From contig OZ242379.1 of assembly GCA_965209225.1 (NCBI GenBank), positions 1,421,289-1,485,288 on the forward strand: 64,000 nucleotides of DNA. The letters run 5' to 3'. Below the pieces are notes generated by a model that saw nothing but the letters and a program-made list of their open reading frames with translations, was not told where the DNA came from and searched no databases. Source of the stretch: Thermodesulfobacteriota bacterium. Its GTDB lineage: Bacteria; Desulfobacterota_D; UBA1144; Nemesobacterales; Nemesobacteraceae. Position numbers and translations under genes: made by a program. Shown here one piece after another: positions 24,421 through 56,548 of the stretch (its first letter is position 1; each line of letters opens with the position of its first letter).

Positions 24421-24446
24421 TAATTTTATTTAAAGCCTGTGGTGAG

Positions 24447-25418: not shown

Positions 25419-25895
25419 GGGGGGGGGGGATATCGGACTTTATGGCGGAGATAACGGTGGCCAACTGGCGCATGGGTTCGGGGAGGTCGTCGAGGTTTTC
25501 CTTGAGCGTGGGGAACAGTTCCTGTTGCAAACAAGCGTGGAACCTGTATAATGCAGGAGTGCGTGGGACATGGTGTTTCTCCTTCCATATTATGGATTTT
25601 GGATAACCTGTAGTATGCCGTGAAGGAGGCACCATGTCTTTATTTTGCCCCTTCATTTCAAAGAAATTCACTCGCCTTAAGAATTTTGCAAGAGGTTCTA
25701 TAGTAAATAAAATCTGACAGATTCAAGCAAAAAAGAACCTTTCTTATGTATCTAACCTACTTTCCGCACAAAAAATATTCTTGTTTTCCCGATTTTTTGC
25801 TCTGTAACTGACTCATATTCCTGACAGTTTTTTTACGCCTTTCTACCCTTTTTTTCTCTCAACTCCTTTTTGCCAGGAATTTTCCGTACAAAACC

Positions 25896-26273
25896 CTATT
25901 TCAACCAGTCTTTCTTCTCGGTCGAACTGCTTATTACCTCCGCCTCAAGCTCGTCAATTTCCGCCTGAATCGCTTTCTGAACTGCCCTGAGCTGCTGGCG
26001 GTACTTGCGGAACCTTCTTCTGTTCTCCGTCATGCTTTTAACCCACTGCACTTCTCCCTTCGCAACAGCTCTGGACTTTGAACTGGAACCCTGGAAAAAA
26101 ACTATACGATCCAACGGATGACCATCCCCCCTCGCACACCAGCAGTTGGGCTTCCCGCACTTGCGATAAACAGTGCTGAACGAACCCCTGATCATCCCTC
26201 TGATTCCGACAATGGAGTTCAGCAGTTCAGCGTGTCTTAGTCCCAGCTGTTCAATCTGTTTTATTCTTGACAT
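25896..26273 (-). CDS. Small zinc-ribbon (CGKPNCWC) hypothetical protein, divergent from the IS1634 transposase
   Basis: 125-aa basic protein with a CxxC pair. Its position suggests it is an IS accessory gene. Confidence 0.35.
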   Translation of the reverse strand: MSRIKQIEQLGLRHAELLNSIVGIRGMIRGSFSTVYRKCGKPNCWCARGDGHPLDRIVFFQGSSSKSRAVAKGEVQWVKSMTENRRRFRKYRQQLRAVQKAIQAEIDELEAEVISSSTEKKDWLK

Positions 26274-26306
26274 CTGTACTTGGTATAGTATATATAATGT
26301 ACAGAT

Positions 26307-27986: not shown

Positions 27987-28187
27987 GAATGATGATTCCG
28001 GAATGCGGAAATTCGGAAAAACAAGGAATTTTTTTCCGCGGAAAATAGGATCTAAGTTATTTCATTAGGGGATTTTGTTGTATACTAGTCAAGGCTGGAA
28101 AAACGGAATAAATGTTTCCTTTGACCAAAATGAAGAGGTGTGGCGTTCCTTACATGTCCAAGAACTCTTGTTCTGGTCGGATTTATT

Positions 28188-32451: not shown

Positions 32452-32468
32452 CGGTTGACAGTTTCCAG

Positions 32469-33851
32469 TTGCGCCGCCTTGCGGAGGAAAAGCTTCGTGT
32501 TCCCGCACTTTTGCACGATTACCAGTGGGAGGGAGTGGCTTTCTTATATCAGTCGCCTTCGGGACTTCTTGCAGATGAAATGGGGCTCGGAAAAACGGTG
32601 CAGACTGCAGTCGCCTTGGGACTGCTTATGCACGCGCAAAACGATGTCAATCGCACAATAATAGTGGCACCCGCTTCCCTGACAACCAACTGGATAGAAG
32701 AACTGGAAAAATGGGCACCGTCGCTTACGGTACGGAGAGTGCAAGGCGACGCACGAAACAGGGAAGCTTTTTACCTGCTTCCGATTCCTGTTATCGTGGC
32801 CTCCTACGAGCAGATCCGCCTTGACGGGTTGGATAGAATTCCCTCAAACGCTTTCGACCTCGTCATACTTGATGAAGCTCAGCGGATTAAGAACAAGGCA
32901 TCTACCACTTCCTTGGCGTGCAGACTTCTCCCAAGAAAGCGCGCATGGGCCTTGTCCGCCACGCCCCTTGAGAACGACGAGGCCGATATTGAATCAATAC
33001 TCGGGTTCCTCGACCCATCATTCGGACAATCTCCTCCTAGATTGGTCTTGAACAAGAAGTTGAGATCAATGATGCTGCGTAGAAAGAAATCCGACGTTCG
33101 AGGGGAACTCCCTCCGGTAATCATACAAGATATTAAAATCGACTTATCATTACAGCAAAGAAACAAATATGAAGATATCTGGTTTAGCAGGACCAATGCT
33201 ATCGGTGACGGCACATCTTCCGGAAATGTTGTCTCTGTATTACTCGGACTTATTACCCGCCTGAAAACTGTGTGCAATTTTGACGAATCAACAGATACCT
33301 CGTCAAAGTGGGATGTTCTCCGGGATCTACTCGATCAGGCCGGGAATTCAGCCCGCATTCTGGTGTTCTCGCAGTTCGTCGAAACCTTGCGCTGGATTTC
33401 CAAACGCCTGGAAATTCCACACAGTCTCCTGACGGGTTCAATGCCCTTGACTCGGAGGCAGAAATCCATAAACGAATTCAAAAGAAATCCGGCTCCTCGC
33501 GTACTGCTGGTTTCGCTTCGTGCGGGCGGAGTGGGATTGAATCTCGGAGAGGCTACCCATGTAGTTCTTTTTGACAGATGGTGGAATCCCGCTGTGGAAG
33601 TTCAGGCGATCTTCCGGGCTCATCGTTTTGAACGCAATGATCCGTTGCATGTTATCAGATTCCTGGCCACCGACACCATTGAGGACCGGATAGCGGAAAT
33701 ACTTGATCGGAAAGAGGACTTGTTTGATGAAGTAATAGAGTCCGTTGAAACCAAGTCTCGCAGTTTTTCACTGCAGGAAATGATGCGCATACTTGAACTC
33801 ACAGAAAATGATCTCTTTTCGGCTAGGGAAGGAAAAAGAACAAAATCGTAA
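32469..33851 (+). CDS. Minimal SNF2-family DNA-dependent ATPase
   Basis: GLGKT Walker A, DEAQ box, LSATPLEN, and a helicase-C domain with RAGGVGLNL and FDRWWNP. There are no accessory domains. Confidence 0.75.
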   Translation: MRRLAEEKLRVPALLHDYQWEGVAFLYQSPSGLLADEMGLGKTVQTAVALGLLMHAQNDVNRTIIVAPASLTTNWIEELEKWAPSLTVRRVQGDARNREAFYLLPIPVIVASYEQIRLDGLDRIPSNAFDLVILDEAQRIKNKASTTSLACRLLPRKRAWALSATPLENDEADIESILGFLDPSFGQSPPRLVLNKKLRSMMLRRKKSDVRGELPPVIIQDIKIDLSLQQRNKYEDIWFSRTNAIGDGTSSGNVVSVLLGLITRLKTVCNFDESTDTSSKWDVLRDLLDQAGNSARILVFSQFVETLRWISKRLEIPHSLLTGSMPLTRRQKSINEFKRNPAPRVLLVSLRAGGVGLNLGEATHVVLFDRWWNPAVEVQAIFRAHRFERNDPLHVIRFLATDTIEDRIAEILDRKEDLFDEVIESVETKSRSFSLQEMMRILELTENDLFSAREGKRTKS

Positions 33852-33962
33852 GGCATTTTCGGAGAGTTCAACATTTGGGATCGGGTCTAGAAAGTGGCTT
33901 TTTTCTCGTAAATCTGCTAACTTATCCAACTAGCTTAAATCGCTTAAAAAAGGGGGTATAAA

Positions 33963-34790
33963 ATGCCAAAAATAATTGAATATAGAGAACTGCCTCTAGA
34001 TGATCTCGTGATAGGAAAGGGACAGGTTCGAACGTTTGAACCAGGGAAGGACATTGAAGAGCTAGCTAACAGTATCAGGGTGCAGGGGCTGTTGCAACCG
34101 ATAGTTGTGTGCGAATCGAAAGAACGACCCGAAAAATGGGAAATCCTTACGGGGCAGAGGCGTTATCTAGCACACAAGCACCTTAAAGAGCAAAGCATAA
34201 CGGCTGCGATCCTAGATGGACATGTTGATGAGCGTACGGCCAAGGCGATTTCTATTACCGAAAACCTGATTCGCCGCAAGCTTTCAGGCTCAGAACTTAT
34301 TGACGGAGTAACGTACTTGTACAACATGTACGGAACGCAAAAAGCTGTTGTTGAAGCTACAGGTCTTCCTGCGTCGGCCGTTCGGGACTACGTGAAATAC
34401 CCTCGGCTTATAGATCCCCTGAAGAAACTTGTTGATGATGGCACCGTTGATATTCATGGAGCTTTAAAAGCTCAGGACGCATCCATTAATGAAGATGGAA
34501 AACCGGACCCGGAAACCGCGGTAAAATTGGCTAAGGAAATGGTTCCCATGTCCGGCATTCAGCGCAAAAAGGTTGTTCAAGCGCGCAAAAAGGATCCCGA
34601 AAAACCAATTGATGACGTGATTGAGGATGCGAAAGGAGCATCCAAGGCAACTCAGGTTGTCGCGACGATTACGCAGAAAACACACACTGCTCTGCAGAAA
34701 TTCGCTAATAACGAAGGAATAAACCAAGATGAAGCCGCTGCTACGCTCATAGAACGTGCTTTGACCAGCGAAGGGCTTCTGGACGAATAA
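33963..34790 (+). CDS. ParB/Srx-domain nuclease-like protein
   Basis: ParB N-domain with a GQRRYLA box and a following HTH-like region. Confidence 0.65.
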   Translation: MPKIIEYRELPLDDLVIGKGQVRTFEPGKDIEELANSIRVQGLLQPIVVCESKERPEKWEILTGQRRYLAHKHLKEQSITAAILDGHVDERTAKAISITENLIRRKLSGSELIDGVTYLYNMYGTQKAVVEATGLPASAVRDYVKYPRLIDPLKKLVDDGTVDIHGALKAQDASINEDGKPDPETAVKLAKEMVPMSGIQRKKVVQARKKDPEKPIDDVIEDAKGASKATQVVATITQKTHTALQKFANNEGINQDEAAATLIERALTSEGLLDE

Positions 34791-35513
34791 ATGCTAGCTG
34801 ATCTCAGTGCTCTCGAGCTCGGGCGTCTCCGAATGTCGGTAGGATACGGTACTCATAAAAAAGGGCGGCCGCTCTCACCAGTTGAAGTCGGAAAATTGAT
34901 TCGCCAAGCTAAAGAAGCGGGCATTTCAACGGAGGATTGCGCCAAAGCAATTAATCTTGACAAAACAAGTATCGGTCGCTTCCTGCGAATTCTTGATCTG
35001 CCTGAAGACGTTCAGCATCTGGTTTCTTGGGGTGCCCAGAAGGATTCTATTGGCTTTTCGGTGGCCGCCCAGTTGGCAAGGTTTGAAGATACAGAAGATC
35101 AGCATGCTGTTATTGAGACAATTTTAACTGATGGGCTTAGCAGGAAAGAAATTGAGCAGGTCTTACAACTCAAGAGTCGATCCGGCAGGAAAATTGACGA
35201 GTGCTTGAAAGAAGTTCTGGGAATGCGTCCTGTGATTGAGAAAAGGCATGTATTCATCGGGATGATAGATGACCAGGATTTGGATGTGACGCTTTCGGGT
35301 CTGACACAAGCACAAAGGGACTCAATACTGCAATCCAGCATCCAAGCACTTGGCTTAGCTGAGGTGTCTGGCCGACTTGGAAAAAACATCCTCACTTTGG
35401 TCGGTTCTCATAGCCTCGGGACATATATCAAAAACATTGGGGCAGACAACCTTGAGGCACAGCTTATAGCCCAGATTCAAAAAGGTATCAACAATGAACG
35501 ACTCCGCGATTGA
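34791..35513 (+). CDS. ParB-like HTH-domain protein lacking the N-terminal catalytic box
   Basis: A ParB HTH-like region (LSPVEVGKLIRQAKEAGISTEDCAKAINLDKTSIGRFLRI) is present. The gene starts 1 nt after the upstream stop. Confidence 0.5.
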   Translation: MLADLSALELGRLRMSVGYGTHKKGRPLSPVEVGKLIRQAKEAGISTEDCAKAINLDKTSIGRFLRILDLPEDVQHLVSWGAQKDSIGFSVAAQLARFEDTEDQHAVIETILTDGLSRKEIEQVLQLKSRSGRKIDECLKEVLGMRPVIEKRHVFIGMIDDQDLDVTLSGLTQAQRDSILQSSIQALGLAEVSGRLGKNILTLVGSHSLGTYIKNIGADNLEAQLIAQIQKGINNERLRD

Positions 35514-36528
35514 TGTTTTCGAGAGCGGGGCTGTCCGTCTGGGCACAAATGTGGTTTGTGACGGTTTCGTGGAAGGATATGACTTCCGTGTCCAGACACA
35601 TGTTCACGATGATCACATGGGGGACTTTGATACAAGTAAAGGCAGACAGGATTTCTTCATGAGCGTGGAGACGTTTAGTCTTCTCAACGCTTTTCTCAAT
35701 GCAGAAATCCCCTACCGATCTAACTTTCACAAAATTCTGCGCGGGGCTGAGTACGAACTTCGTGATGGTTCAAAGCTGACTCTTCTTCCGTCGAACCATA
35801 TGCTCGGTTCATGTCAAGTATCCTTGCAGTTGCTAAATGGCCGACGAGTAGGTTATTCGGGGGATTTCGGCTGGCCTCTCGAAAAAATCATCCAGGTCGA
35901 TGAACTCGTGGTGGATAGCACCTACGGAAGTCCGAATAGCGTACGCGGCTATACACAAGCTGAGGCCGAGGAATGTCTTTTGGAGCTTGTATGCAAACGT
36001 TTGAGGTATGGTTCCGTTCATATCTACGCCCACCGAGGAACAGTTGAACGGGTTCTGCATATCATCGAAGGTAACGTGGGAGTCCCAATTCTTGCCAGTG
36101 ATCGACTTATTCAAGAAGTAGATGTTTATCAGAATTGCGGAATCGCACTGGGAGAAGTTGAGAGCCTTAGTTCAGATGAAGGAGTATCAGCATCCAAACG
36201 AAGGGCTTACGTTCGATTATATTCAAAAGGCGACGGTTTCGGAAACGAACCCATTACTGACACAAGTATCAAATGCAGTGCCTATATGGCCACACGTTTT
36301 GCGAGTAGTCCGTTAATAACCCTCAGTGACAACTCTTACAGCGTGGCATTATCAAATCATGCGGATTTTCGCGAGACGCTTGAATATGTTGAGGCAACGG
36401 GAGCTGAGATAGTAGTCACCGATAATACACGTAACCATGGCATTGAACTGGCCAACGCAATTAACGAGCGTTTATCCGGGATCAAGGCAAGACCATCAAC
36501 AAATAATCCCACACCTCGCTGGCGCTAA
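35494..36528 (+). CDS. Metallo-beta-lactamase-fold hydrolase (probable nuclease)
   Basis: HVHDDH (HxHxDH) motif, downstream His/Asp ligands (NHML, SNHADF) and a beta-CASP-like C-terminal half. Confidence 0.65.
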   Translation: MNDSAIDVFESGAVRLGTNVVCDGFVEGYDFRVQTHVHDDHMGDFDTSKGRQDFFMSVETFSLLNAFLNAEIPYRSNFHKILRGAEYELRDGSKLTLLPSNHMLGSCQVSLQLLNGRRVGYSGDFGWPLEKIIQVDELVVDSTYGSPNSVRGYTQAEAEECLLELVCKRLRYGSVHIYAHRGTVERVLHIIEGNVGVPILASDRLIQEVDVYQNCGIALGEVESLSSDEGVSASKRRAYVRLYSKGDGFGNEPITDTSIKCSAYMATRFASSPLITLSDNSYSVALSNHADFRETLEYVEATGAEIVVTDNTRNHGIELANAINERLSGIKARPSTNNPTPRWR

Positions 36529-36692
36529 CCGAAATTCATCCAATTAATCTAAGGTTAGACGCGCTCGCTCGGGTCTGTGGGGGAAAGGGAGCGGAAACGC
36601 CCCTTTCTACCCAGTCATAAATATTGTATGCGATATTTGACATATATGTAGCGACAATAATATGCTATAGTATCATCTTTGGGAAGTAATTA

Positions 36693-36944
36693 ATGGCTAC
36701 ACGCAAAATACCAGCCCCGGACGGCGGACTTGTTGAGGCGGAAGTTGTTGACATTAAAGACATTAATAGTCGCCCTATCATTATAGAACTCTCCGACGGA
36801 GCGATATTAAGTATGAGAGTAGATATAGTTGAAGTTTGCCGTACTGATAAATTTCCGGATCAAGACGGCAATCCATTTTATAGTATAAGAAGCGGCAATC
36901 TTCTTTCAGTCGTTGAACCTCCGCAGGGGCAAGGAAAAAAATAG
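36693..36944 (+). CDS. Hypothetical small protein
   Basis: 83-aa ORF in an AT-rich segment behind a promoter-like TTGACA...TATAGT region. Confidence 0.35.
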   Translation: MATRKIPAPDGGLVEAEVVDIKDINSRPIIIELSDGAILSMRVDIVEVCRTDKFPDQDGNPFYSIRSGNLLSVVEPPQGQGKK

Positions 36945-36959
36945 AGATCGGTTAGCTAT

Positions 36960-37475
36960 ATGGAAAGCACTAAAACAGTACAAGTAATAGATACGTTTCA
37001 GAACAAGTCTTTTCCACTTTCTTTTTTACAAGAGAAGGTGGTGGGTAGCATTGACTTAGAAAGAAACTACATTTCACTTGACAGCTTGACGAGGAATTAC
37101 ACTGTACTTAAAGAACCTTCCTATTATGAGCCTCCCCGGAACACTTTTCCCGAAGAATATATTGAGTCTTCGTTTACTTTGCTTATGGAAAGCTGGTGCG
37201 AAGAAAAGAAATATATGTCTTTTCTGTCAGATATAGTTACGTGTCCTTCGTATCAAAAAATAATTGAGATGGGAGAATTAGCCCTTTCATTAATATTAGT
37301 TCAACTTAGAAAAGAAGGAGACGACCCAAACCACTGGTTTACCGCTCTTGAAGCTATAACAGGTCATAACCCAGTTCCAGAAAGCGCTTATGGAAATATG
37401 GTAAAGATGGCAGAAACATGGCTTTTCTGGGCCGAAAAAAATAATGTTTCCCGGCTTTCCGAATCTCAATTCTGA
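36960..37475 (+). CDS. Hypothetical protein (possible immunity/partner protein)
   Basis: 171 aa; overlaps the downstream ORF by 32 nt. Confidence 0.35.
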   Translation: MESTKTVQVIDTFQNKSFPLSFLQEKVVGSIDLERNYISLDSLTRNYTVLKEPSYYEPPRNTFPEEYIESSFTLLMESWCEEKKYMSFLSDIVTCPSYQKIIEMGELALSLILVQLRKEGDDPNHWFTALEAITGHNPVPESAYGNMVKMAETWLFWAEKNNVSRLSESQF

Positions 37476-37875
37476 AAATTGTCGCATAACTAGTCCACCA
37501 ACTAATCGCTACAACTGTATAGCTTGGGCGGCTGGTTGTAGTACCAAGTGGTGGTGCCCTTATGGCTATTGGCCTTCCGGAGTTCCCAGAAAAATAACTC
37601 TGTCTGCACTTTCAGAAGTATTTAGAACTCTTGGATACGAAGAATGCGAAGATGGTTTCTTAGAATCTGGATATGAAAAAGTGGCATTGTTCGCTAGTTC
37701 TAATGCTGATAAAGACCTGTTACCTACACACGCTGCAAGACAACTAAGGAATGGGTGGTGGACAAGCAAATTCGGAGATGATATTGAGCATAGGAATCCA
37801 GAAGACCTGAATGGTTCAGCATATGGAACTGTAATTTGTTTTATGCGACGTGCAAAAGAAGGTGGCTTGAAATAA
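37444..37875 (+). CDS. Hypothetical protein with a papain-like Cys...His arrangement (YNCIAWAAG ... PTHAARQ)
   Basis: 143 aa. The Cys/His spacing is reminiscent of NlpC/CHAP-type or other thiol hydrolases. Speculative. Confidence 0.3.
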   Translation: MFPGFPNLNSENCRITSPPTNRYNCIAWAAGCSTKWWCPYGYWPSGVPRKITLSALSEVFRTLGYEECEDGFLESGYEKVALFASSNADKDLLPTHAARQLRNGWWTSKFGDDIEHRNPEDLNGSAYGTVICFMRRAKEGGLK

Positions 37876-38046
37876 TGGGAAAGCTTTTGTGCGTTGGTTT
37901 GAATACACTTAAAGAAAAAAACTGTTTAAAATAAAGGAACCACTTCTTTTCTCCGGGATGCGGCATTATTGCTTGGGCGTTCCGCAGTACGACGCTTGGT
38001 GCTGTAGAGACGTTTTCACAATACTTTTTCGTTTCGAGGTGAGTAG

Positions 38047-44480: not shown

Positions 44481-44840
44481 GTGTTAGAGCAGTATGTTCC
44501 CGTCTTCCTGATAATAGTAATAGCGATCGTTCTGGCCGCGGCGCTTCTGTCCGTTTCCTATCTGCTCGGCCCTAAAAGATACGGAAGCTGGCGCAAGCTG
44601 ATTCCGTATGAATCGGGGATGGTCCCCAGGGGAGACGCGAGGGAGAAGGTTTCACTCAAGTATTACCTCATAGGAGCCCTTTTCATACTGTTTGACATAG
44701 AAATCGTGTTCCTCGTAGCCTGGGCGGTCGTGTTCAGGGAGCTTGGGATGGTGGCGCTTATCGAGGTGCTGGCATTCCTTTTTGTTGTGATGGGCGGGTA
44801 CTTTTACGTTCTCAAGAAAGGAGCTTTGGAATGGGAGTAA
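44481..44840 (+). CDS. nuoA: NADH-quinone oxidoreductase subunit A
   Basis: 119 aa, 3-TM ND3-like protein. Confidence 0.85.
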
Positions 44841-45316
44841 GCAGCGGGTCGCTTCTCGGCGGAGACGGTTTTCTCACGACCAAGGTCTCCGCGGTTGCCA
44901 ACTGGGGAAGGAAAAACAGCCTGTGGCCGATGGCTTTCGGAACCGCCTGCTGCGCGATTGAGATGATGGGGACTTTCTCCTCGAGGTTTGATATCGCGAG
45001 GTTCGGAGCCGAAGCCGTGAGATTCTCGCCGAGACAGGCGGACCTGATGATAGTTTCCGGTACCATAACCTACAAGATGGCGTCGGTCTGCAGAAGGATC
45101 TACGAACAGATGCCCGAGCCCAAGTGGGTAATAGCGATGGGGTCGTGCACGTGCGGTGGCGGGCCTTTTGACAGTTACGCCGTTGTTCAGGGAATAGACG
45201 AGTTCCTTCCGGTGGATGTTTACGTTGGCGGCTGTCCCCCGAGGCCCGAAGCCCTTATTGACGCCGTCATGAAAATTCAGAAGAAAATAGATAACGAGGG
45301 ACCTCCGATCGTATGA
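44831..45316 (+). CDS. nuoB: NADH-quinone oxidoreductase subunit B
   Basis: Fe-S motifs CCAIEMM and GSCTCGGGP. Confidence 0.9.
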
Positions 45317-45831
45317 CCTCCCCACCTGACCCTGTCGATCAAATAAGGGAAAAAATAAGCGGGTACATCCTCTCGGAGAGCACATTCCGTGGGGAAACCA
45401 CCTTTATTGTAAAGGCGGAATCGATAGTCGAGTGCTGTTCGGTTCTTAAAAACACCCTCGGTTTTACCTATCTTGTGGACGTTACGGTTGTCGACTACCT
45501 GACCGTTAAATTTCCAAGGTACGAGGTTGTCTACCTCCTTCACCGCTTTGGTGAGAACTACGAAGAGAACCTGAAAATAAGGCTCAAGGCTGCTATTGAG
45601 CAGTGCAGCCCCGCAATTGATTCCGTAACGTCGGTGTGGTCCGGGGCGGACTGGCTTGAGAGAGAAGCCTACGATATGTTCGGGATAACTTTCAGGGGAC
45701 ATCCCGACCTGAGAAGAATACTGATGCCCGAGGATTACGATCAGTTTCCGCTGAGAAAGGATTTCGACGTGAGAGACAGGGAATCTTCGAAGAGATGTTT
45801 TGAGCGGGCTCTTGATGAAGGGCTTGAGTGA
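45313..45831 (+). CDS. nuoC: NADH-quinone oxidoreductase subunit C (30 kDa)
   Basis: 172 aa in the conserved operon position; ERE(A/V)YDMFGI motif. Confidence 0.85.
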
Positions 45832-47057
45832 TGGAAAGAGTAGAGATTGTCACGGAAGAGCTCGGCACTGAGGCCGACGGTACGAGAAAGCAGACCATGA
45901 TGCTTAACATGGGGCCCCAGCATCCGTCAACCCACGGGGTTCTGCGTGTGGTTCTTTATCTTGACGGGGAGATAGTCCAAGAGGCCGTTCCTCACATCGG
46001 CTACCTGCACAGGGGAATAGAGAAGCTCTGCGAGGACATCACCTACCAGAAATGTCTTCCGTACACCGACAGGATGGACTACCTGGCCTCGATATGCAAC
46101 AACATAGGCTTCATACTGGCCGTTGAGAAGCTCCTCGGGATTGAGGATGAAATTCCCCCGAGGGCCAAGGTGGCCGAGGTGATAATGTTTGAGCTCGGCA
46201 GAATCGAGTCTCATCTCATAGGCATAGGCGCAAACGCCATGGATCTCGGCGCGATGACCGCTTTTCTTTTCTGCTTCAAGGAGCGCGAGCGTATCTACGA
46301 GATTCTCGAGATGGTGTGCGGAGCGAGACTCACGACTTCATACCCCAGGGTGGGGGGCCTCCCCATGGATCTTCCCGAAGATTTCCAAGACACGATAAGG
46401 AATTTTCTTAAGATATTCCCCGAGACCTTAAGCGAGATAGACAGGCTTCTTACGAGAAACAAGATATGGATCGGTCGCACCAAGGATGTGGCGGTTATAA
46501 GCAAGGAGCAGGCGATTGATCTCGGGATTACCGGTCCCATACTCAGAGGAAGCGGCGTTCCCTACGACGTGAGAAAGGCCGTTCCCTACCTTGATTACGA
46601 AAACTACGAGTTCGACATACCGGTCGCCAGTGAAGGAGACGCGTACGCCAGGTATCTATGCAGGATGGAGGAGATGAGACAGAGCCTTCGCATAATCGAG
46701 CAGGCCCTTCGCAATCTTCCCGACGGCCCCTACATAGCCGACCTTCCTGATATCGTCTTGCCCGAAAAAGAGCTTGTCTACACAAAAATGGAGTCCCTGA
46801 TCAGGCATTTCGTGCTTGTCTACAGCGGTTTTGAGACTCCTCCGGGGGAGATATACCACGCCGTGGAGAATCCCAAGGGGGAGCTTGGTTACTACATAGT
46901 AAGCGACGGTACGGGAAAGCCCTACAGGATGCGGGTTCGCGGGCCGTCGTTTGTGAACCTGCAGGCCCTTCCGGGTATGGTAAAAGGGGGATTTGTCTCC
47001 GATGTCGTTGCCGCAATAGGCAGCATTGACATAGTGCTCGGGGAAGTCGACAGGTAG
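45828..47057 (+). CDS. nuoD: NADH-quinone oxidoreductase subunit D (49 kDa)
   Basis: 409 aa with GPQHP, HRGIEKL and LGEVDR at the C-terminus. Confidence 0.9.
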   Translation: MMERVEIVTEELGTEADGTRKQTMMLNMGPQHPSTHGVLRVVLYLDGEIVQEAVPHIGYLHRGIEKLCEDITYQKCLPYTDRMDYLASICNNIGFILAVEKLLGIEDEIPPRAKVAEVIMFELGRIESHLIGIGANAMDLGAMTAFLFCFKERERIYEILEMVCGARLTTSYPRVGGLPMDLPEDFQDTIRNFLKIFPETLSEIDRLLTRNKIWIGRTKDVAVISKEQAIDLGITGPILRGSGVPYDVRKAVPYLDYENYEFDIPVASEGDAYARYLCRMEEMRQSLRIIEQALRNLPDGPYIADLPDIVLPEKELVYTKMESLIRHFVLVYSGFETPPGEIYHAVENPKGELGYYIVSDGTGKPYRMRVRGPSFVNLQALPGMVKGGFVSDVVAAIGSIDIVLGEVDR

Positions 47058-47146
47058 GAGTAGGGGGGGGGTAATCAGGGCATTTGGCTGGTTTGTCGCG
47101 CGCTTTTGGAGAAAACACCGACGCATGTTAGAATTATCGGCGGTTT

Positions 47147-48490
47147 ATGAGCAGTTTGCCCGAATATCTTGAACGCGGAGAAAAAGCGCGTCTTTTTCCG
47201 GTGCTGGCGGACACTTCAAAGGAGGGCCGCAGCACTTCAATTCTTCTTTCCTGCCTTGTGCATGTGCGCGAATTCGGCCAGGCGATGCTGGGTTCCGTCA
47301 ACCAGCGCGTCGGGAAACTTGCGAGCCTCGCGGCGTACACCGAAGTCACATTCGCGGACCGAGGGGAGGAAAAAGCGCACAGGCCGGACGGGCTGATCGT
47401 GCTCAAGGTTGGCAGGCGCCGGTGGAAAGCGCTGGTCGAAACGAAGACCGGCAACGTCAAGCTCGATGAGGAGCAGCTTGCCGCCTACATGCGCTTGGCC
47501 AGAGAACATAACATTGATGCCGTGATAACCGTCTCAAACCAGTTCACCTCGAGACCGGATCATCACCCTCTCAAGCTCTCCGCCAAAATGCGCTCAAGGG
47601 TGAAAGTCTATCACTGGTCATGGATGTACATTATTACGCAGGCCGACCTGCTGATTTCCAATGACGACATTGAAGACGAGGACCAGTATTTTGTTCTCTC
47701 CGAGATGTTGAGATTCCTGACGCATGCGAGCACGGGGGTAAAAGCTTTTGATCGCATGCCCGAGGCATGGCCCGGTATCGTGCAGAAAATCGCCGCCGGC
47801 GCTTCGCTCCAGACAAAAAGCGAGGAAGTGCAGGATATAGTGGCCGCTTGGCATCAGGAAGTCAGAGACATCTCTCTTCTGCTGACGCGCAAGGTCAATG
47901 TGAAAGTTGAAGTCAGTCTGCCGCGTTCCCACGTTCTGGACCCGGCGGCACGTGCAAAGAAAGACGCCTACGAACTTGCCGAAAAGCAGACGCTTTATGC
48001 CGGACTTAAGATTCAAGATGCGGCAGCACCGATTGAGTTGGTCGTCGATATCGGAAAACGGACGATCAGCGCGTCAATGACGCTTGAAGCTCCCGGCAAC
48101 AGAAAAACCACCCCGGCCCGTCTCAACTGGCTGCTCCGCCAGCTGCGGAAAACCTCCGAAACGGATATCCATATCAGACTGATCTGGCCCGGACGAAGGC
48201 CTCGCACGCAGTATACGCTTGGGGAACTGAGAGAGAATTCGGCGATGGCTTCCGCAAGCGGTCAGGATCTTCCCGTCGCCAGATTTGAAGTATGCATGAT
48301 CCGTCAGCTGGGCAGACGTTTCAGTCAGCGCAAAAGCTTCATTGACGAACTGGAGCAGATGGTGTCAGGGTTTTACGAAACCGCCGGTCAGCACCTGCGT
48401 GCGTACCAGCCCCCCGCCCCCAAGGTAAGCGAAGACAGAACCGCCCCGCAAAGCGTTACTCCCGAAGGATTGCAGCGCACTGAAGAATAA
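47147..48490 (+). CDS. Hypothetical protein with a PD-(D/E)xK-like nuclease motif (RPDGLIVL...ALVETK)
   Basis: 447 aa. GC content is visibly higher and Arg codons are CGC/CGG-biased, unlike the neighbouring genes. It is preceded by a G9 tract. Confidence 0.5.
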   Translation: MSSLPEYLERGEKARLFPVLADTSKEGRSTSILLSCLVHVREFGQAMLGSVNQRVGKLASLAAYTEVTFADRGEEKAHRPDGLIVLKVGRRRWKALVETKTGNVKLDEEQLAAYMRLAREHNIDAVITVSNQFTSRPDHHPLKLSAKMRSRVKVYHWSWMYIITQADLLISNDDIEDEDQYFVLSEMLRFLTHASTGVKAFDRMPEAWPGIVQKIAAGASLQTKSEEVQDIVAAWHQEVRDISLLLTRKVNVKVEVSLPRSHVLDPAARAKKDAYELAEKQTLYAGLKIQDAAAPIELVVDIGKRTISASMTLEAPGNRKTTPARLNWLLRQLRKTSETDIHIRLIWPGRRPRTQYTLGELRENSAMASASGQDLPVARFEVCMIRQLGRRFSQRKSFIDELEQMVSGFYETAGQHLRAYQPPAPKVSEDRTAPQSVTPEGLQRTEE

Positions 48491-48549
48491 AAACACGCTC
48501 GCTTTGAAACCCGCGCTGTCGGAGTTGTCAAATGCGATACGGAAAAGAC

Positions 48550-49209
48550 TCAGGGAAAAGCCTCCATCCCTGCTCCCTTCGGTTTTTTGAAACTGAAAAA
48601 CGAATCGGCAATGCCGAGGTTAACTTCCGGGGTGCCCAGTTTTATGACCGTAGTGTTTCCGAAGACATCGCCGATTATGATTTCTCTTAGCATGTAGGTC
48701 TTTGAATCGACCGCTATCCTTACCTGCTTTGACTGCTCCTGGTTTTTCTGTTTCAGGTCAAGGAGGACATTTCCACGCTCGTCTGTGCTTCCGGCACTAG
48801 GTCGGACATCGAAAAGGCGGTCAAGATCCTCCAGTATGGAAATGATGGTATAGGAACCGAGAGAGTCTGCCCAGACGCTTTCAGTTTCCATCTCGGTTAC
48901 CTGGTTCTCCCGGCTGTCGAAATACCAGACCTTCTTTCCGTCAGAAACAATCGTATCTTTCCATGGCTCTTCGTACTGCCACTTCATCATCCCGGGTTTT
49001 TTGAACCACACCTTGCCCGAGGAAGCGATTTTCTCATCAAGGTCCTTTATCCGGGTCACCTGGGTGAATGGAGAACTGAGGTCGTTTATCGAGGAGTATT
49101 TTTTCTGGATGCCGCTTACAACAGTACTTGGATCCTGGGTCCTCGCGGGCTGCGCGGTAAAAAGAAGGGATGTGGCGAAAAGCGCTGCCGCAAGCGCGAT
49201 TTTTTTCAA
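48550..49209 (-). CDS. lolA: Outer-membrane lipoprotein carrier protein LolA
   Basis: Signal peptide plus LolA fold length and motifs. Confidence 0.75.
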   Translation of the reverse strand: MKKIALAAALFATSLLFTAQPARTQDPSTVVSGIQKKYSSINDLSSPFTQVTRIKDLDEKIASSGKVWFKKPGMMKWQYEEPWKDTIVSDGKKVWYFDSRENQVTEMETESVWADSLGSYTIISILEDLDRLFDVRPSAGSTDERGNVLLDLKQKNQEQSKQVRIAVDSKTYMLREIIIGDVFGNTTVIKLGTPEVNLGIADSFFSFKKPKGAGMEAFP

Positions 49210-51468: not shown

Positions 51469-52926
51469 CTAAAACGCGATCGCGGCGAGAAGAGTCGTTG
51501 AGGCCTGAGCCGCCAGATCCCATGACAACAAAGGAAATATACCGAAAAAAACCGTTACTGCGGTAAGCACCGCGATTGTGGCCCCCGAAAGCGGTTTGTT
51601 TGCGCCTGCTCCGTAACTGTCTTCCCTCATAAACGCGTAGACGAGCACCTTGAGGTAGTAGTACGCCGAGATTACGCTTGTTATTATTCCTATTACCGCA
51701 AGCGGCGTCAGGTTGGCGTCGACCGCGGCTAAAAACACCCTGTATTTTGCGAAAAACCCTATAGTCGGCGGGATTCCCGCAAGCGAGAACATAAATACTC
51801 CAAGTGCGAGCGATGCCGCCGGTTTTCTGCTCCATAGTCCCGATATCCTCTCGAAAGTGTCACAGTCGTCCCCCTCCCTGCTCGCGTAGGCGAGGATTCC
51901 GAAAGCTCCGAGGTTCATAAAAGTGTAGGCAAACAGATAATAAAGAACGCTCCCGCTTCCGACAGAAGAGTCCGAGAGGACTGCCGCTACCCCGACGAGG
52001 GCGTATCCGGCGTGCGCCACGCTTGAGTAGGCAAGCATCCTCTTCACGCTTTTCTGATATATGGCGGCTATATTCCCCACTACCATGGTCGCCACCGCCG
52101 CAATCTGCACCGCGGCCGTCATGTAGCCCTCAAATCCCGGAGCGGAGCTGAGAAATATTCTCAGCAGCAGCACGAAAGCCGCCGCTTTTACCGCAACGGA
52201 CATGTATCCCGTAACGGTGAGAGGAGCGCCGTCGTAGATGTCGGGCACCCACTGGTGAAGCGGCACGGCTCCTATCTTGAAAATAACTCCCACCGCCACA
52301 AAGGCGGCTCCGCAGACATACATCGGGAGATTTCCCGGGCTTTTCAGGATTTCCTCAAGAAAAGTGGAACCGGTAGCCCCGTAGAGAAGGGCGATTCCGA
52401 AAAGCAGCACCGCGGAAGAGAAGCCCCCCAGGACGAGGTATTTCACGCCTGATTCCGTCGAGTCGAGGGATTTGCTTCTGAACCCCGAGAGTATGTAGAC
52501 GGCGATTGACATGATTTCGAATCCCACGAAAAGCGTCATGAGTTCGACCGAAGAGGCGAGAACCATCATCCCGCTTGTGCAGAAAAGCACAAGCGCATAA
52601 AACTCCTCAAGCCATTGGGTACGACCCTCTAGGTGATCTTTTGAAAAAAGAATAGTCGCAAGCGCCGCCAGGAGAAAAAGCGAGTTGAAATAGGCGGAAA
52701 AGGAATCGATTACCAATGCGCCGGAAAACGCGGAACTTTCGCCGGAAAACCTGGAGAAGTTAAGAACGAGGGAGAGTACGGTTCCCGAGATTGCGAGGAG
52801 AAAAAGCGACCCCTTCCATCTTTTTTTGAGAATCGGGGTGAAGATCAGTATGAGCACGGCGGCGAGTATGAGTATGCACTCGGGAAGGATAGCCAGAGTG
52901 CTTTCAAACAGAACCTGCATATTCAT
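51469..52926 (-). CDS. nuoN: NADH-quinone oxidoreductase antiporter-like subunit (NuoN-type)
   Basis: 485 aa, about 14 TM segments, ND2/NuoN-like. Confidence 0.75.
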   Translation of the reverse strand: MNMQVLFESTLAILPECILILAAVLILIFTPILKKRWKGSLFLLAISGTVLSLVLNFSRFSGESSAFSGALVIDSFSAYFNSLFLLAALATILFSKDHLEGRTQWLEEFYALVLFCTSGMMVLASSVELMTLFVGFEIMSIAVYILSGFRSKSLDSTESGVKYLVLGGFSSAVLLFGIALLYGATGSTFLEEILKSPGNLPMYVCGAAFVAVGVIFKIGAVPLHQWVPDIYDGAPLTVTGYMSVAVKAAAFVLLLRIFLSSAPGFEGYMTAAVQIAAVATMVVGNIAAIYQKSVKRMLAYSSVAHAGYALVGVAAVLSDSSVGSGSVLYYLFAYTFMNLGAFGILAYASREGDDCDTFERISGLWSRKPAASLALGVFMFSLAGIPPTIGFFAKYRVFLAAVDANLTPLAVIGIITSVISAYYYLKVLVYAFMREDSYGAGANKPLSGATIAVLTAVTVFFGIFPLLSWDLAAQASTTLLAAIAF

Positions 52927-54719: not shown

Positions 54720-55316
54720 CTACAAGCTTCGCAATCGCCGAAGCAGTGCCGCGGCATGTGGACATGCTGCCTCGACGAGCGACGGATTTACCTTGGCGAG
54801 CACTTCAAAAGAGGTTTTGCCCTTGGAATAGGATTTTCTGCATTTCGAGGTGGCTTTTCCAAGTGTCCCATGGACAGTTTCTTTCAATACCTGTTCTAAA
54901 TGAGGCCACTGCTTGACAACATTACTGTCGAATTGTGTGCCGAAAAAGGACTGCAGTGCGTTCTGGTCGGCGAGAAACCAGGTTTCCATACACTGAACCA
55001 TAAGGAATGCCTGATTATCCTGCGCGTGTTCGGGACGATACCAGTTGTCGTTTTTTAGAAGGTGTTTCCAGGCTGAGCTTCCCTCATCAACCGGAGATTC
55101 GCTGTCGACCAGGAGCATGGGGATCATTCTGGAGGAAACTTCCTCAGTTGCTCTTTTGAATTTCCGGAAAGTCTGTTCGCGTCCTCCTCCGTGCACAATT
55201 TTAATGTTGTGAACTTCGGCCGCTTCAAAGAATTTTCGCCAGCCTTGGCGAAAAGATATTCCAAGAGCTTTGGATTTGGTTCCTCCACCCTCAATATAGA
55301 TCTTCGCTCCTACCAC
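54720..55316 (-). CDS. DUF4276-like (TOPRIM/OLD-related) protein
   Basis: 198 aa with a KIYIEGGG N-terminus. It is encoded immediately downstream of, and overlapping, an ABC-type ATPase gene. Confidence 0.45.
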   Translation of the reverse strand: MVGAKIYIEGGGTKSKALGISFRQGWRKFFEAAEVHNIKIVHGGGREQTFRKFKRATEEVSSRMIPMLLVDSESPVDEGSSAWKHLLKNDNWYRPEHAQDNQAFLMVQCMETWFLADQNALQSFFGTQFDSNVVKQWPHLEQVLKETVHGTLGKATSKCRKSYSKGKTSFEVLAKVNPSLVEAACPHAAALLRRLRSL

Positions 55317-56548
55317 CTGTTACCGCCCAATTCCCCTGAAGTCCACAGGTGCCCTAGGCGATACTCTTCAAGCCATTTCGCAGTATCTTCTCTGTCAAGA
55401 CGTCGCATCTCTGTCTGTCCGTTATGTTTTTCGCAGATTACTACGCTCTGCGGATTGTCGTTGAGGGCGTCAACTAACACATCGGAGTGGGTAGTTACAA
55501 TCAACTGTGTATGGTCCGAGGCTTTTACCAGCAGGTCGCTTAACGTTGGAAGCAAATCAGGGTGAATGCCCAGCTCAGGTTCCTCAATCACCAGAAGAGG
55601 CGGTGGGTCCGGGTGCAGCAGGATGCTCAGGAGACACAGGTAACGTAATGTTCCATCTGACAAACGCGTAATAGGGATCAGGCGGTTATTACTTTCCTCC
55701 AAGTGAAGTGTCATTGACCCCCCAGCAACGGAGCACTCAATGCCGATAATGCCATCAAAAAGCTTGCACAGTTCCACAAGCAGTTCTCTCTTCGCCTCTC
55801 CATGAAAATTCGAGAGGACAAGAGGCAGGTTAGCGCCTCCATCATCAAGAAAGTCGGCGCGATCATGTGTGCTCTGACTCCTTCGCAGTTCAGACGAGGG
55901 TCCAAACGACCAGTTTCTGTAAAGACGGATTTTACTGTACTGCTCCTTCAGATGCCAGAGTCCCGGATAATCGGGGGTGGCCATATAAGACAGCAACGAC
56001 TGTTCCGGATGAAGTTCGTCTGCGAAATTCACTGTGCCGTCGCGGTAAACGGCGAACAGCTTGGGAGTTGTCCATTCACCATTTTTCTTTCCTGAATCCC
56101 CTTGCTCAGCTTCCGCATTGGTTCTTGAAATTTCGAGAGATATCTGTTCATCCCTGGGAGGACGATAGTAGGAGAATGCCTCACGTTCGTTGCTGTGGGT
56201 CTGGCAAGGTTCAACTTGCTCACTGATTACTTTTGGTTGACCATTTCTCTGCGCCATTGTTAGTTTATGTCGTAGCGGGCCACTTGGCGGATAGTCAACC
56301 CAGGCCTCTATGGAGAAGGAATCAGGCGCTTTGGGGCCTTTCCATATCCATTCCCCGGCCCCACCCATGCGGGATATTGGTTCTGAAACACCTCTTGGCG
56401 CCGCTCTCAGCAGGGCTACTGCCTCAAGAAAATTTGATTTCCCCGACCCGTTTGTGCCTATAAGAACATTCAGTGGTTCCATGGGCAGATCAACACCATC
56501 GGGACCAAATGATAAAAAGCCTGAGATTTTCAGCTTTTCAATCAGCAT
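55310..56548 (-). CDS. AAA_15/AAA_21-type (OLD/ABC-like) ATPase
   Basis: Walker A GTNGSGKSNFLEA, Walker B/D-loop LLVIEEPELGIHPDL and a C-terminal TTHSD motif. Confidence 0.7.
   Translation of the reverse strand: MLIEKLKISGFLSFGPDGVDLPMEPLNVLIGTNGSGKSNFLEAVALLRAAPRGVSEPISRMGGAGEWIWKGPKAPDSFSIEAWVDYPPSGPLRHKLTMAQRNGQPKVISEQVEPCQTHSNEREAFSYYRPPRDEQISLEISRTNAEAEQGDSGKKNGEWTTPKLFAVYRDGTVNFADELHPEQSLLSYMATPDYPGLWHLKEQYSKIRLYRNWSFGPSSELRRSQSTHDRADFLDDGGANLPLVLSNFHGEAKRELLVELCKLFDGIIGIECSVAGGSMTLHLEESNNRLIPITRLSDGTLRYLCLLSILLHPDPPPLLVIEEPELGIHPDLLPTLSDLLVKASDHTQLIVTTHSDVLVDALNDNPQSVVICEKHNGQTEMRRLDREDTAKWLEEYRLGHLWTSGELGGNRW

What the first reader, a model, noticed from the sequence alone, without database searches (positions are those of the whole stretch)
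47062..48490. Single-gene insertion with a PD-(D/E)xK motif between nuoD and lolA, with foreign-looking composition
The 447-aa ORF has RPDGLIVLKVGRRRWKALVETK, a D...E-x-K nuclease-like core. It uses CGC/CGG Arg codons and looks GC-richer than the flanking nuo and lolA genes, which use AGA/AGG. It interrupts what would normally be a contiguous nuo operon. It may be a stand-alone defence nuclease of the Shedu-like or another single-gene system.
Basis: partly seen in the sequence, partly recalled or inferred. Interest (0 to 1): 0.55.

Follow-up and report, generated by a model that had tools for sequence, protein, structure and literature searches.

The report
Stand-alone nuclease of an unnamed family
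The gene encodes an intact DNA-cutting enzyme from a large family with no curated model or name; it is not part of the respiratory (nuo) genes beside it, and its varied neighbours suggest an anti-virus defence role that remains untested.

Summary
The 447-aa ORF is real (47147-48490, +), and so is the motif RPDGLIVLKVGRRRWKALVETK (residues 79-100). D81, E98, K100, Q110 and Y114 are kept in 251-252 of 253 relatives, so this is a selectively maintained PD-(D/E)xK nuclease with a RecB-type QxxxY motif. A C-terminal domain follows. Its model is confident (pLDDT 93), but it has no structural neighbour in PDB or BFVD.

The family is large: at least 2,109 clusters at 50% identity, in at least 312 species. 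It has no Pfam, NCBIfam or PADLOC model and no conserved partner gene. In Actinobacteria the whole module is fused to a TerD sensor domain.

The "insertion into nuo" reading fails. In relatives nuoABCD already ends at nuoD. The nuclease-lolA-ftsK-nuoN block exists in relatives without nuoD, and none of about 89 homologous loci abuts nuo genes.

"Foreign composition" is mostly unsupported. GC3 and overall codon usage are native; only Arg codons differ.

"Shedu-like" is not supported. A defence or conflict role is plausible: relatives sit beside CBASS, ZorD-like helicase, RES toxin and E1/JAB genes, and the flanks are hypervariable. It is not demonstrated.

The parts
47147..48490 (+). Complete ORF of 447 aa: a stand-alone two-domain nuclease of an uncharacterised family.
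   Evidence: ORF list. Full-length homologs number more than 1,188 proteins and 2,109 clusters at 50% identity, nearly all about 440-480 aa. The N-terminus aligns at M1 with the homologs.
47147..47746 (+). N-terminal PD-(D/E)xK (restriction-endonuclease-fold) domain, residues about 1-200.
   Evidence: The AF2 model (pLDDT 84) shows an alpha-beta-beta-beta-alpha-beta core: H25-39, E60-69, E82-88, E91-99, H108-120, E125-130. The top Foldseek PDB hits are restriction enzymes (EcoT38I, PaqCI, MspJI, BamHI), all at weak E-values of 4e-3 or worse. Pfam VRR_NUC scores 20.6 bits, below its 23.8-bit cut-off.
47381..47446 (+). Catalytic motif RPDGLIVLKVGRRRWKALVETK, with D81, E98 and K100.
   Evidence: Translation. 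D81 is kept in 251 of 253 sequences, E98 in 252 and K100 in 252.
47474..47488 (+). QxxxY motif (Q110...Y114) in the helix after the E-x-K strand, as in RecB-type nucleases.
   Evidence: Q110 and Y114 are each kept in 252 of 253 sequences. Position.
47744..48421 (+). C-terminal alpha/beta domain, residues about 200-425. It has no catalytic-looking invariant acidic or lysine residues, and its function is unknown (a sensor, regulatory or DNA-binding role is inferred).
   Evidence: The separate AF2 model has pLDDT 93 and pTM 0.88. There is no significant structural neighbour in PDB (best E 0.09) or BFVD (best E 6.6e-3, TM 0.27). hhalign finds no relation to the N-terminal domain. Invariant residues are W208, W235, W328 and the FY pair at 409-410.
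47086..47146 (+). Conserved 5' flank that travels with the gene. It contains a sigma-70-like promoter match at 47107-47134 (TGGAGA-16-TAGAAT with an upstream TG).
   Evidence: DNA homology with all close relatives starts at 47086-47101, whatever lies upstream. Promoter scan. The match is weak evidence, because 0.7 matches are expected by chance in the region.
47058..47085 (.). Rearrangement breakpoint between the nuoD stop and the start of the conserved nuclease unit.
   Evidence: No related locus matches the window to the left of 47086 next to its homolog. The nuoD side matches L094 and L095 up to 47051-47061.
48491..48556 (+). Conserved 3' tail of about 60 bp after the stop codon. It ends where the variable cargo of relatives begins.
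   Evidence: Alignment A4. Homology ends at 48494-48556 in L012-L016.

Best explanation
The ORF encodes an active, metal-dependent DNA nuclease of a large, unnamed two-domain family.

Shown:
- The N-terminal domain carries a complete PD-(D/E)xK active site: E26 in helix 1, E66, D81, E98-x-K100, then Q110xxxY114.
- The C-terminal domain of about 225 aa is well folded in prediction and has no detectable structural relative.
- The gene works without an obligatory partner. It has its own conserved promoter region, and nothing nearby recurs across the family.
- It is not part of the nuo system. In this lineage it belongs to a nuclease-lolA-ftsK-nuoN neighbourhood, normally preceded by an ion-channel gene. 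In this genome a rearrangement placed nuoABCD directly upstream.

Inferred:
- The rearrangement was probably the loss of a PKS cluster together with the channel gene.
- The protein acts in genetic conflict, restricting phage or plasmid DNA or acting as an abortive-infection effector.
- The C-terminal domain holds the nuclease in check or recognises the trigger or substrate.
- In Actinobacteria the same module is placed under a fused TerD ligand- or Ca2+-sensing domain.
For: Nuclease identity:
- The catalytic residues are near-invariant in 253 relatives down to 28% identity.
- The model shows a restriction-endonuclease-type core, and the best PDB fold hits are restriction enzymes.
- Pfam VRR_NUC gives a sub-threshold hit over residues 59-126.

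Family:
- 2,109 clusters at 50% identity, nearly all full length.
- At least 312 of 185,579 species genomes, patchily spread over Dadabacteria, Rhodothermales, Cyclobacteriaceae, many marine Alphaproteobacteria and a few Gamma- and Betaproteobacteria.

No partner:
- The commonest neighbour family occurs in 10 of about 89 loci.
- No Pfam family occurs in more than 3 of 132 nearest-neighbour ORFs.

Accessory or conflict behaviour:
- In Dadabacteria of 85-96% identity only the gene is shared between loci, usually together with the ion-channel gene. Both flanks differ in at least 4 arrangements.
- The slot just downstream holds a CBASS cyclase (PADLOC 2e-92) with SLATT_4 and Schlafen in L014, a ZorD/DpdE-like SNF2 helicase with radical SAM in L013, and HTH-IrrE in L016.
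- A genome whose housekeeping DNA is 87-89% identical to the window carries an allele only 69.5% identical, at a different locus.
- Other contexts hold transposases, antitoxins, RM genes and a relaxase.

TerD fusion:
- At least 851 actinobacterial proteins of about 650-700 aa consist of TerD plus this whole module.
- On plasmids they lie beside RES toxins, ThiF/JAB/DUF6602 operons, and radical-SAM with tmk and MazG genes.
- TerD is treated as a sensor of nucleotide derivatives in conflict systems (PMC7159879).

Precedent: single-gene PD-(D/E)xK defence proteins are an established class, 8 of the 13 PD-(D/E)xK systems in DefenseFinder (PMC13099982).
Against: - There is no experimental data for any member.
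- There is no hit to any of 5,027 PADLOC models, and no homolog in 50,697 phage records.
- Defence-gene hits are as frequent 8-10 kb away as among the four nearest genes. There is no gradient, and I had no genome-wide baseline, so enrichment is not established.
- Many neighbours are ordinary housekeeping genes, such as CarB, ThiC, AlaRS, RNR and ExoVII.
- In the window itself the gene sits between housekeeping genes, with native GC3 and codon usage.
- It appears vertically inherited in its sub-lineage. This also fits a conserved cellular DNA-repair or stress function.
- The role of the C-terminal domain is pure inference.
Confidence: 0.5

Rival explanations
1. It is a cellular DNA-repair, recombination or stress-response nuclease. 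It would process damaged DNA or DNA ends, like other RecB-type QxxxY nucleases, and would not be an immune gene.
For: - The QxxxY motif is typical of end-processing nucleases (family knowledge).
- Codon usage and GC3 are native, and divergence is close to that of the flanking housekeeping genes.
- Some neighbours are repair genes: the Tag glycosylase in L010, and ExoVII and UvrD-like helicases in the neighbour set.
- Actinobacterial relatives are annotated as 'stress response protein SCP2' or TerD family.
Against: - It is found in only about 0.2% of species genomes, and patchily (a lower bound).
- It has no conserved genomic position and no repair-gene partner.
- Divergent alleles sit at different loci in closely related genomes.
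- It is frequently adjacent to mobile and defence genes and is carried on actinobacterial plasmids.
- The 'stress response' name merely comes from the TerD domain, which this protein lacks.
Confidence: 0.22
2. It is the effector of a signal-coupled system. The nuclease module would be switched on by an ion or small-ligand signal. That signal would be sensed by a fused TerD domain in Actinobacteria and by the adjacent, co-travelling voltage-gated-type ion channel in Dadabacteria. The copy in this window would then be an orphan effector that has lost its sensor.
For: - The 2.4-kb block of Ion_trans plus nuclease is the only DNA shared between at least 4 different genomic contexts in 7 close genomes. 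It has a conserved promoter region upstream of the channel gene.
- The TerD fusion occurs in at least 851 proteins.
- TerD is proposed to be a ligand sensor in conflict systems (PMC7159879).
- No channel gene is found anywhere in the 64-kb window by tblastn.
Against: - The channel association is confined to one Dadabacteria sub-clade (9 of about 89 loci) and could be simple shared ancestry.
- Most family members have neither TerD nor a channel.
- Another Dadabacteria clade instead pairs the gene with a small nuclease-like protein.
- There is no direct evidence for regulation.
Confidence: 0.12
3. It is a selfish or addictive element: a free-standing homing-type endonuclease, or the toxin of a toxin-antitoxin pair, that spreads or persists for its own sake.
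For: - The unit relocates between contexts without any recombinase.
- Antitoxin-like genes (HicB, ParD, VapB, Phd) occur near some homologs.
Against: - Insertion sites are all different, so there is no homing target.
- No flanking repeats were seen at the block ends in the alignments.
- No antitoxin family recurs next to the gene.
- The protein is large, with a conserved second domain, and is under strong purifying selection across phyla.
Confidence: 0.06

Closest known systems
Actinobacterial 'TerD family protein / stress response protein SCP2' fusions (e.g. WP_241065045.1 on Rhodococcus qingshengii pLP337; WP_208869023.1 on Streptomyces glaucescens pSglau1)
   Same: They are homologous over the whole 430-aa module: 28-31% identity, more than 90% of the query covered, tblastn E 1e-32 to 1e-49. 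E26, E66, D81, E98, K100, Q110, Y114, H156, W159 and W208 are all conserved. They are stand-alone genes in variable contexts.
   Different: They carry an N-terminal TerD domain (Pfam E 1e-43 to 1e-50) and a low-complexity linker, both absent here. They occur in Actinobacteria, often on plasmids. Their function is equally untested.
Cap4 (CBASS effector: restriction-endonuclease-fold nuclease + SAVED sensor)
   Same: The architecture is the same in outline: an N-terminal restriction-endonuclease-fold nuclease followed by a non-catalytic C-terminal domain of about 220-250 aa in one polypeptide. It therefore serves as a working analogy for a nuclease gated by its C-terminal domain. A Cap4 chain appears among the weak fold hits of the full model (E 0.06).
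   Different: The C-terminal domain alone gives no SAVED or CARF match. There is no PADLOC hit. No cyclase is consistently adjacent; the one CBASS neighbour (L014) has its own SLATT effector.
Shedu (SduA, DUF4263)
   Same: It is a single-gene PD-(D/E)xK nuclease proposed or shown to act in defence.
   Different: No DUF4263 or Shedu model matches at E <= 1. Here the nuclease is N-terminal, whereas in SduA it is C-terminal (family knowledge).
VRR-NUC and RecB/Cas4-type PD-(D/E)xK nucleases
   Same: The D...E-x-K...QxxxY motif order is the same. VRR_NUC is the only Pfam model that comes near (E 4.8e-4, residues 59-126).
   Different: The score is below the Pfam gathering threshold (20.6 against 23.8 bits). 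There are no Cas4-type Fe-S cysteines; only C36 is conserved. The protein has an extra conserved H156-x-S-W159 element and a large C-terminal domain.
Restriction endonucleases EcoT38I, PaqCI and MspJI (best fold matches)
   Same: They share the nuclease core fold (Foldseek probability 0.77-0.97).
   Different: E-values are only 4e-3 to 4e-2, TM-scores about 0.15-0.2 and identity 11-14%. No cognate methyltransferase is consistently adjacent.
Upx, a single-protein PD-(D/E)xK anti-phage system (PMC13099982)
   Same: It is a precedent for a solitary multi-domain PD-(D/E)xK defence protein whose accessory domains regulate the nuclease.
   Different: Upx is 1,272 aa, with the canonical nuclease at the C-terminus. 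No Upx entry appears among the 50 fold matches listed, whose descriptions were read by name.

Membership tests
PD-(D/E)xK (restriction-endonuclease-like) superfamily | An acidic residue at the start of beta-2 and (D/E)-x-K on beta-3, conserved across homologs. | tested here: met
   D81, E98 and K100 are kept in 251-252 of 253 sequences. In the model D81 precedes strand E82-88, and E98 and K100 lie at the end of strand E91-99.
PD-(D/E)xK (restriction-endonuclease-like) superfamily | An alpha-beta-beta-beta-alpha-beta core fold resembling solved nucleases. | tested here: inconclusive
   The predicted topology fits, and the top PDB hits are restriction enzymes. However, the best E-value is 4e-3 with TM about 0.2.
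VRR-NUC (PF08774) | A score above the Pfam gathering threshold. | tested here: not met
   20.6 bits against a cut-off of 23.8.
RecB/Cas4-like nucleases | A QxxxY motif after the E-x-K strand. | tested here: met
   Q110 and Y114 are each kept in 252 of 253 sequences.
RecB/Cas4-like nucleases | A match to PDDEXK_1 or Cas4 models, and for Cas4 the four Fe-S cysteines. | tested here: not met
   No such Pfam hit at E <= 1. Only one conserved cysteine, C36.
Shedu (SduA) | A DUF4263 nuclease domain, or a match to the PADLOC Shedu models. | tested here: not met
   No PADLOC family at E <= 1. No DUF4263 in Pfam at E <= 1.
Type II restriction-modification system | A cognate DNA methyltransferase encoded next to the nuclease. 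| tested here: not met
   The neighbours in the window are nuoD and lolA. Methyltransferase models (MTase_II, oMTase) each match only one of the 132 nearest-neighbour ORFs. One of these, in L010/L036, is directly upstream.
Ter / TerD stress-response proteins | Presence of a TerD domain (PF02342). | tested here: not met
   No TerD hit in the window protein. The domain is present only in the distant actinobacterial fusions.
NADH dehydrogenase (nuo) operon component | Homologs consistently encoded within nuo clusters. | tested here: not met
   None of about 89 homologous loci has nuoD or another nuo gene as the immediate upstream neighbour. nuoABCD ends at nuoD in relatives that lack the nuclease there.
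Anti-phage defence gene (operational definition) | Statistical enrichment next to known defence systems across genomes. | tested here: inconclusive
   Strong defence hits occur among the nearest neighbours (Hhe, PDC-S37, RmrA, MTases, GajB-like) and in Dadabacteria (CBASS, ZorD-like). A control set 8-10 kb away has as many (pAgo, type I S subunit, MADS, SoFic). No genome-wide baseline was available.
Anti-phage defence gene (operational definition) | Protection against phage on heterologous expression. | not testable with these tools
   This is a wet-lab assay.

The most novel reading that the evidence does not exclude
The 430-aa module is a portable, signal-gated nuclease effector that different lineages have wired to different sensors. 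In Actinobacteria the sensor is a fused TerD (Ca2+ or nucleotide-derivative) domain. In Dadabacteria it is a co-mobile voltage-gated-type ion channel with an unusual SVEYGD filter. In most other bacteria it is the module's own novel C-terminal domain. Together these would form a new class of anti-phage system that reads ion flux or membrane perturbation and answers by cutting DNA.
Probability: 0.12. Interest if true: 0.8.

Novelty: new variant of a known kind. Interest (0 to 1): 0.45.

Why it matters
If the defence reading holds, this adds a widespread single-gene nuclease system: at least 2,100 sequence clusters, plus at least 850 TerD-fused actinobacterial proteins. PADLOC (2023), Pfam and NCBIfam, the libraries searched here, do not recognise it. 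Its C-terminal domain has no detectable structural relative.

The TerD fusion would also give the long-enigmatic TerD domain a concrete effector to study.

For genome annotation, the result corrects a tempting misreading. The gene is not an insertion into a respiratory operon, and composition alone would not have flagged it. For sponge-associated Dadabacteria, it shows that this stretch of chromosome is a turnover zone for defence genes.

Tried and rejected
- Sequence searches of the protein and of a 35-sequence profile against all PDB chains found nothing at E <= 10.
- PADLOC found nothing for the focal protein.
- NCBIfam gave only a spurious CtlX hit, 17 bits against a cut-off of 334.
- tblastn against phage genomes found no match.
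- The exact protein is not on record in the contig index, so the source contig could not be retrieved.
- Foldseek of the C-terminal domain against PDB and BFVD gave only noise: pilin, p38 kinase and uncharacterised phage proteins.
- hhalign of the N- against the C-terminal half tested for an internal duplication or second degenerate nuclease domain. It found no relation.
- The Anantharaman, Iyer and Aravind 2012 paper on Ter systems, which may describe the TerD-nuclease fusion, is not held in the library. I could not check whether the fusion has been noted before.
- The near-versus-far PADLOC comparison was meant to show a defence gradient around the gene. It showed none.
- I considered and rejected a type II restriction enzyme (no consistent methyltransferase), a nuo accessory subunit (context), and a pseudogene or chance ORF (strong conservation).
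- The block ends were inspected only by eye in the alignments, and no terminal repeats or attachment sites stood out. No repeat search was run.
Full report
**1. What is in the sequence**

The window carries a 447-aa ORF at 47147-48490 on the + strand. It starts 89 bp after the nuoD stop (47057). It ends 59 bp before the convergent lolA gene (48550-49209, minus strand). The neighbours are:
- Upstream on the + strand: nuoA, nuoB, nuoC and nuoD.
- Downstream on the minus strand: lolA, ftsK, nuoN, a JAB-domain gene and a PALP enzyme.

These identities come and from the Pfam labels of the 93%-identical locus L001.

**2. Is the motif meaningful?**

Yes. In 35 homologs of 49-91% identity, E26, E66, D81, E98, K100, Q110 and Y114 are invariant. 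I then aligned 253 sequences, including 50%-identity cluster representatives and two actinobacterial proteins of about 30% identity. D81 is kept in 251, and E98, K100, Q110 and Y114 in 252 each. H156, W159 and W208 are kept in all 253.

The AlphaFold model (pLDDT 84, pTM 0.73) places these residues on an alpha-beta-beta-beta-alpha-beta core. The best PDB fold matches are restriction endonucleases (EcoT38I, PaqCI, MspJI, BamHI). All are weak, with E of 4e-3 or worse and TM about 0.2. Pfam offers only VRR_NUC, below its threshold. NCBIfam, PADLOC and PDB sequence searches give nothing useful.

The protein is therefore a PD-(D/E)xK nuclease with a RecB-type QxxxY motif. It belongs to no curated family.

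**3. The second domain**

Residues about 200-425 fold confidently on their own (pLDDT 93, pTM 0.88). They have no significant structural neighbour in PDB (best E 0.09) or in BFVD. hhalign shows no relation to the N-terminal half. The invariant residues of this domain are mostly aromatic or structural (W208, W235, W328, F409-Y410). None looks catalytic. Its role as a sensor, regulator or DNA-binding domain is inference.

**4. Composition**

- Overall GC is 0.559. This is at the upper edge of the neighbours' range, 0.495-0.562.
- GC3 is 0.642, indistinguishable from nuoD (0.670), ftsK (0.660) and nuoN (0.631).
- Against a leave-one-out pool of the window's genes, the synonymous-codon likelihood of this gene ranks 27th of 49, which is typical. 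The true outliers are the ORFs at 28-37 kb.
- The one real signal is in Arg codons: 25 CGN and 14 AGR, against 70 and 137 in the 13 nearest genes (p = 5.6e-4).
- At the DNA level the gene is 89.8% identical to its ortholog in the L015 genome. Housekeeping DNA of that genome is about 92.4% identical.

The gene is therefore not a recent arrival in this sub-lineage.

**5. Is it an insertion into a nuo operon?**

No, for four reasons.
- In two related genomes the order TatD-PdxA-S41-Sir2-nuoABCD is the same as in the window, and the nuo cluster stops at nuoD. In L094 it is followed by a Phd antitoxin, a permease, a hydrolase, ACPS, ACP and a giant PKS. In L095 only one unidentified 95-aa ORF follows before the contig ends.
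- The block nuclease-lolA-ftsK-nuoN-JAB-PALP exists in relatives with no nuoABCD upstream.
- In every close relative, homology with the window begins at 47086-47101. This places a breakpoint at 47058-47085.
- In 7 of the 8 close genomes, all but the window, the upstream neighbour is a 243-aa Ion_trans channel gene. The window has no such gene anywhere.

In L001, L012 and L024 the channel is itself preceded by the 5' end of a giant PKS gene. That PKS is collinear with the one downstream of nuoD in L094, at 66-74% nucleotide identity. The simplest reading is that the window's lineage lost a segment holding the PKS cluster and the channel gene. That loss would have brought nuoD next to the nuclease. 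This is inference, not proof.

**6. The family and its contexts**

- More than 1,188 close homologs, none with any precomputed Pfam domain.
- 2,109 clusters at 50% identity with E <= 1e-3, nearly all 440-480 aa and matched end to end.
- At least 312 of 185,579 species genomes, a lower bound from two peptide patterns. They include Dadabacteria, Rhodothermales, Cyclobacteriaceae, many marine Alphaproteobacteria, some Xanthomonadales and a Limnohabitans.
- No homolog in phage genomes.

I called ORFs in 91 loci and clustered them. No neighbour family occurs in more than 10 of the roughly 89 loci. In 33 dereplicated loci, no Pfam family occurs in more than 3 of the 132 nearest-neighbour ORFs. The gene is therefore a stand-alone unit.

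**7. Behaviour in Dadabacteria**

Among seven genomes of 85-96% protein identity, the only DNA shared between most pairs of loci is a 2.3-2.4-kb block of the channel gene plus the nuclease. It has about 75 bp of conserved promoter region and about 60 bp of 3' tail. Both flanks differ in at least four arrangements. The slot just downstream holds different cargo in different genomes:
- Nothing in the window and in L001.
- A 4.5-kb insert of unknown genes in L012.
- A 6.4-kb insert with a ZorD/DpdE-like SNF2 helicase and a radical-SAM protein in L013.
- A CBASS cyclase (PADLOC 2e-92), a SLATT_4 effector and a Schlafen-type protein in L014.
- An HTH-IrrE regulator in L016.

A second Dadabacteria clade carries a 65-73%-identical version between carB and thiC. 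It is preceded by a small nuclease-like protein of about 205 aa. The same pair recurs in an unrelated island with SNase and AlpA genes. One genome of that clade has housekeeping DNA 87-89% identical to the window, yet its nuclease gene is only 69.5% identical. This degree of divergence and relocation is typical of accessory, conflict-related genes.

**8. The TerD connection**

tblastn against plasmids found 11 Rhodococcus and Streptomyces records. In each, a stretch 28-31% identical to more than 90% of the query forms the C-terminal two-thirds of a protein of about 680-700 aa annotated 'TerD family protein'. Pfam confirms an N-terminal TerD domain (E 1e-43 to 1e-50) and nothing else. The catalytic residues are retained.

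At least 851 such proteins exist in Rhodococcus, Nocardia, Prescottella, Tomitella and Streptomyces. This explains the stray 'stress response protein' label on one alphaproteobacterial homolog.

On plasmids these genes stand alone among conflict genes:
- RES-family toxins with HTH partners.
- ThiF/JAB/DUF6602 operons with SIR2.
- A radical-SAM, tmk, EEP and MazG cluster.
- A polymorphic toxin.

No ter operon genes are nearby. The Aravind group treats TerD as a sensor of nucleotide derivatives in conflict systems (PMC7159879). A TerD-nuclease fusion fits a sensor-effector design.

**9. How it most likely works**

Shown: an intact, strongly conserved PD-(D/E)xK active site, a conserved second domain, autonomy from neighbours, relocation between contexts, and fusion to a sensor domain in another phylum.

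Inferred: it cleaves DNA in a metal-dependent way. The C-terminal domain restrains the enzyme or targets it. Its biological role is in conflict with phages or plasmids. I put about 0.5 on this combined statement. The nuclease part alone deserves about 0.85.

The main rival is a cellular repair or stress nuclease (0.22). A signal-gated effector coupled to a channel or to TerD is the most novel reading (0.12). A selfish or toxin element is unlikely (0.06).

**10. Limits**

The defence association is not statistically established. PADLOC hits are as common 8-10 kb away as next to the gene, and I had no genome-wide baseline. My ORF calls in the fetched loci are crude. No AlphaFold DB fold search was possible. 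The 2012 Ter-system paper could not be read, so the TerD fusion may already have been noted there.

**11. Verdict**

Shedu is not supported, an insertion into a nuo operon is not supported, and a foreign composition is mostly not supported.

This is a new variant of a known kind: a solitary multi-domain PD-(D/E)xK protein. It is of moderate interest as a candidate defence family and as a handle on TerD biology.

Noticed in passing
window 24160-37946: This 13.8-kb stretch between uvrA and glyA (SHMT) is absent from two related genomes, where those genes are adjacent. It has the most atypical codon usage in the window. It encodes DndA/SspA-like (E 8e-154), DndC-like (1e-115), HEC-06/Orf5-type ATPase (6e-72) and DpdE/ZorD-like SNF2 helicase (3e-63) proteins. 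It is probably a DNA-phosphorothioation-type defence island.
   Followed up: partly
window 54720-56548 (minus strand): An AAA_21 ATPase (411 aa) and a DUF4276 protein (197 aa) match the PADLOC candidate system HEC-01 A and B at E 6.5e-132 and 1.9e-62. In L001 the same slot, between tusA and purQ, holds a 106-aa ORF and a VapB antitoxin instead.
   Followed up: partly
L001:7084-7815 and the equivalent positions in L012-L016 and L024: A 243-aa Ion_trans/Ion_trans_2 channel gene travels with the nuclease gene as a 2.4-kb block through at least four different genomic contexts. Its pore signature reads TTLASVEYGD rather than the canonical K+ filter TVGYG. It is missing from the window.
   Followed up: partly
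L014:11507-13635, L013:6124-12566 and L016:12069-13166: The slot immediately downstream of the nuclease gene is a cargo hotspot in relatives. L014 holds a CBASS cyclase, SLATT_4 and Schlafen/AlbA_2. L013 holds an SNF2 helicase and radical SAM, plus two PD-Lambda-5_A/PDC-M38A-like proteins. L016 holds HTH-Peptidase_M78.
   Followed up: partly
L005:7237-7842, and L006:7412-8026 with its duplicate L007:603-1217: A protein of about 205 aa with its own D...E-V-K-like motif precedes the nuclease homolog in a second Dadabacteria clade, and overlaps it in L006. It is labelled Phage_T4_End_IV in the precomputed Pfam hits but was not found by my Pfam copy. It occurs in two unrelated contexts.
   Followed up: no
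window 44481-47057 and 51469-52926; L094 and L095: The complex I genes are scattered in this lineage. nuoABCD forms one cluster next to a Sir2 gene. nuoN sits alone on the other strand beside ftsK-lolA. No nuo gene was seen in the 40-55 kb ORF list other than nuoA-D and nuoN, but nuoE-M were not searched for across the whole window.
   Followed up: partly
L001:1-6727; L094:15674-21227: Relatives carry a giant type I PKS of about 3,460 aa with ACP and ACPS genes. It lies between the nuoD side and the channel/nuclease side. The window lacks it at this position. Together with the sample names, this suggests sponge-associated Dadabacteria and a deletion of the PKS cluster in this genome.
   Followed up: partly
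L092:4733-7071 and L097:3680-6018: Two hypothetical genes of identical lengths (1,101 and 1,242 nt) lie directly upstream of the TerD-nuclease fusion gene on two different Rhodococcus plasmids. This hints at a three-gene operon in some Actinobacteria.
   Followed up: no
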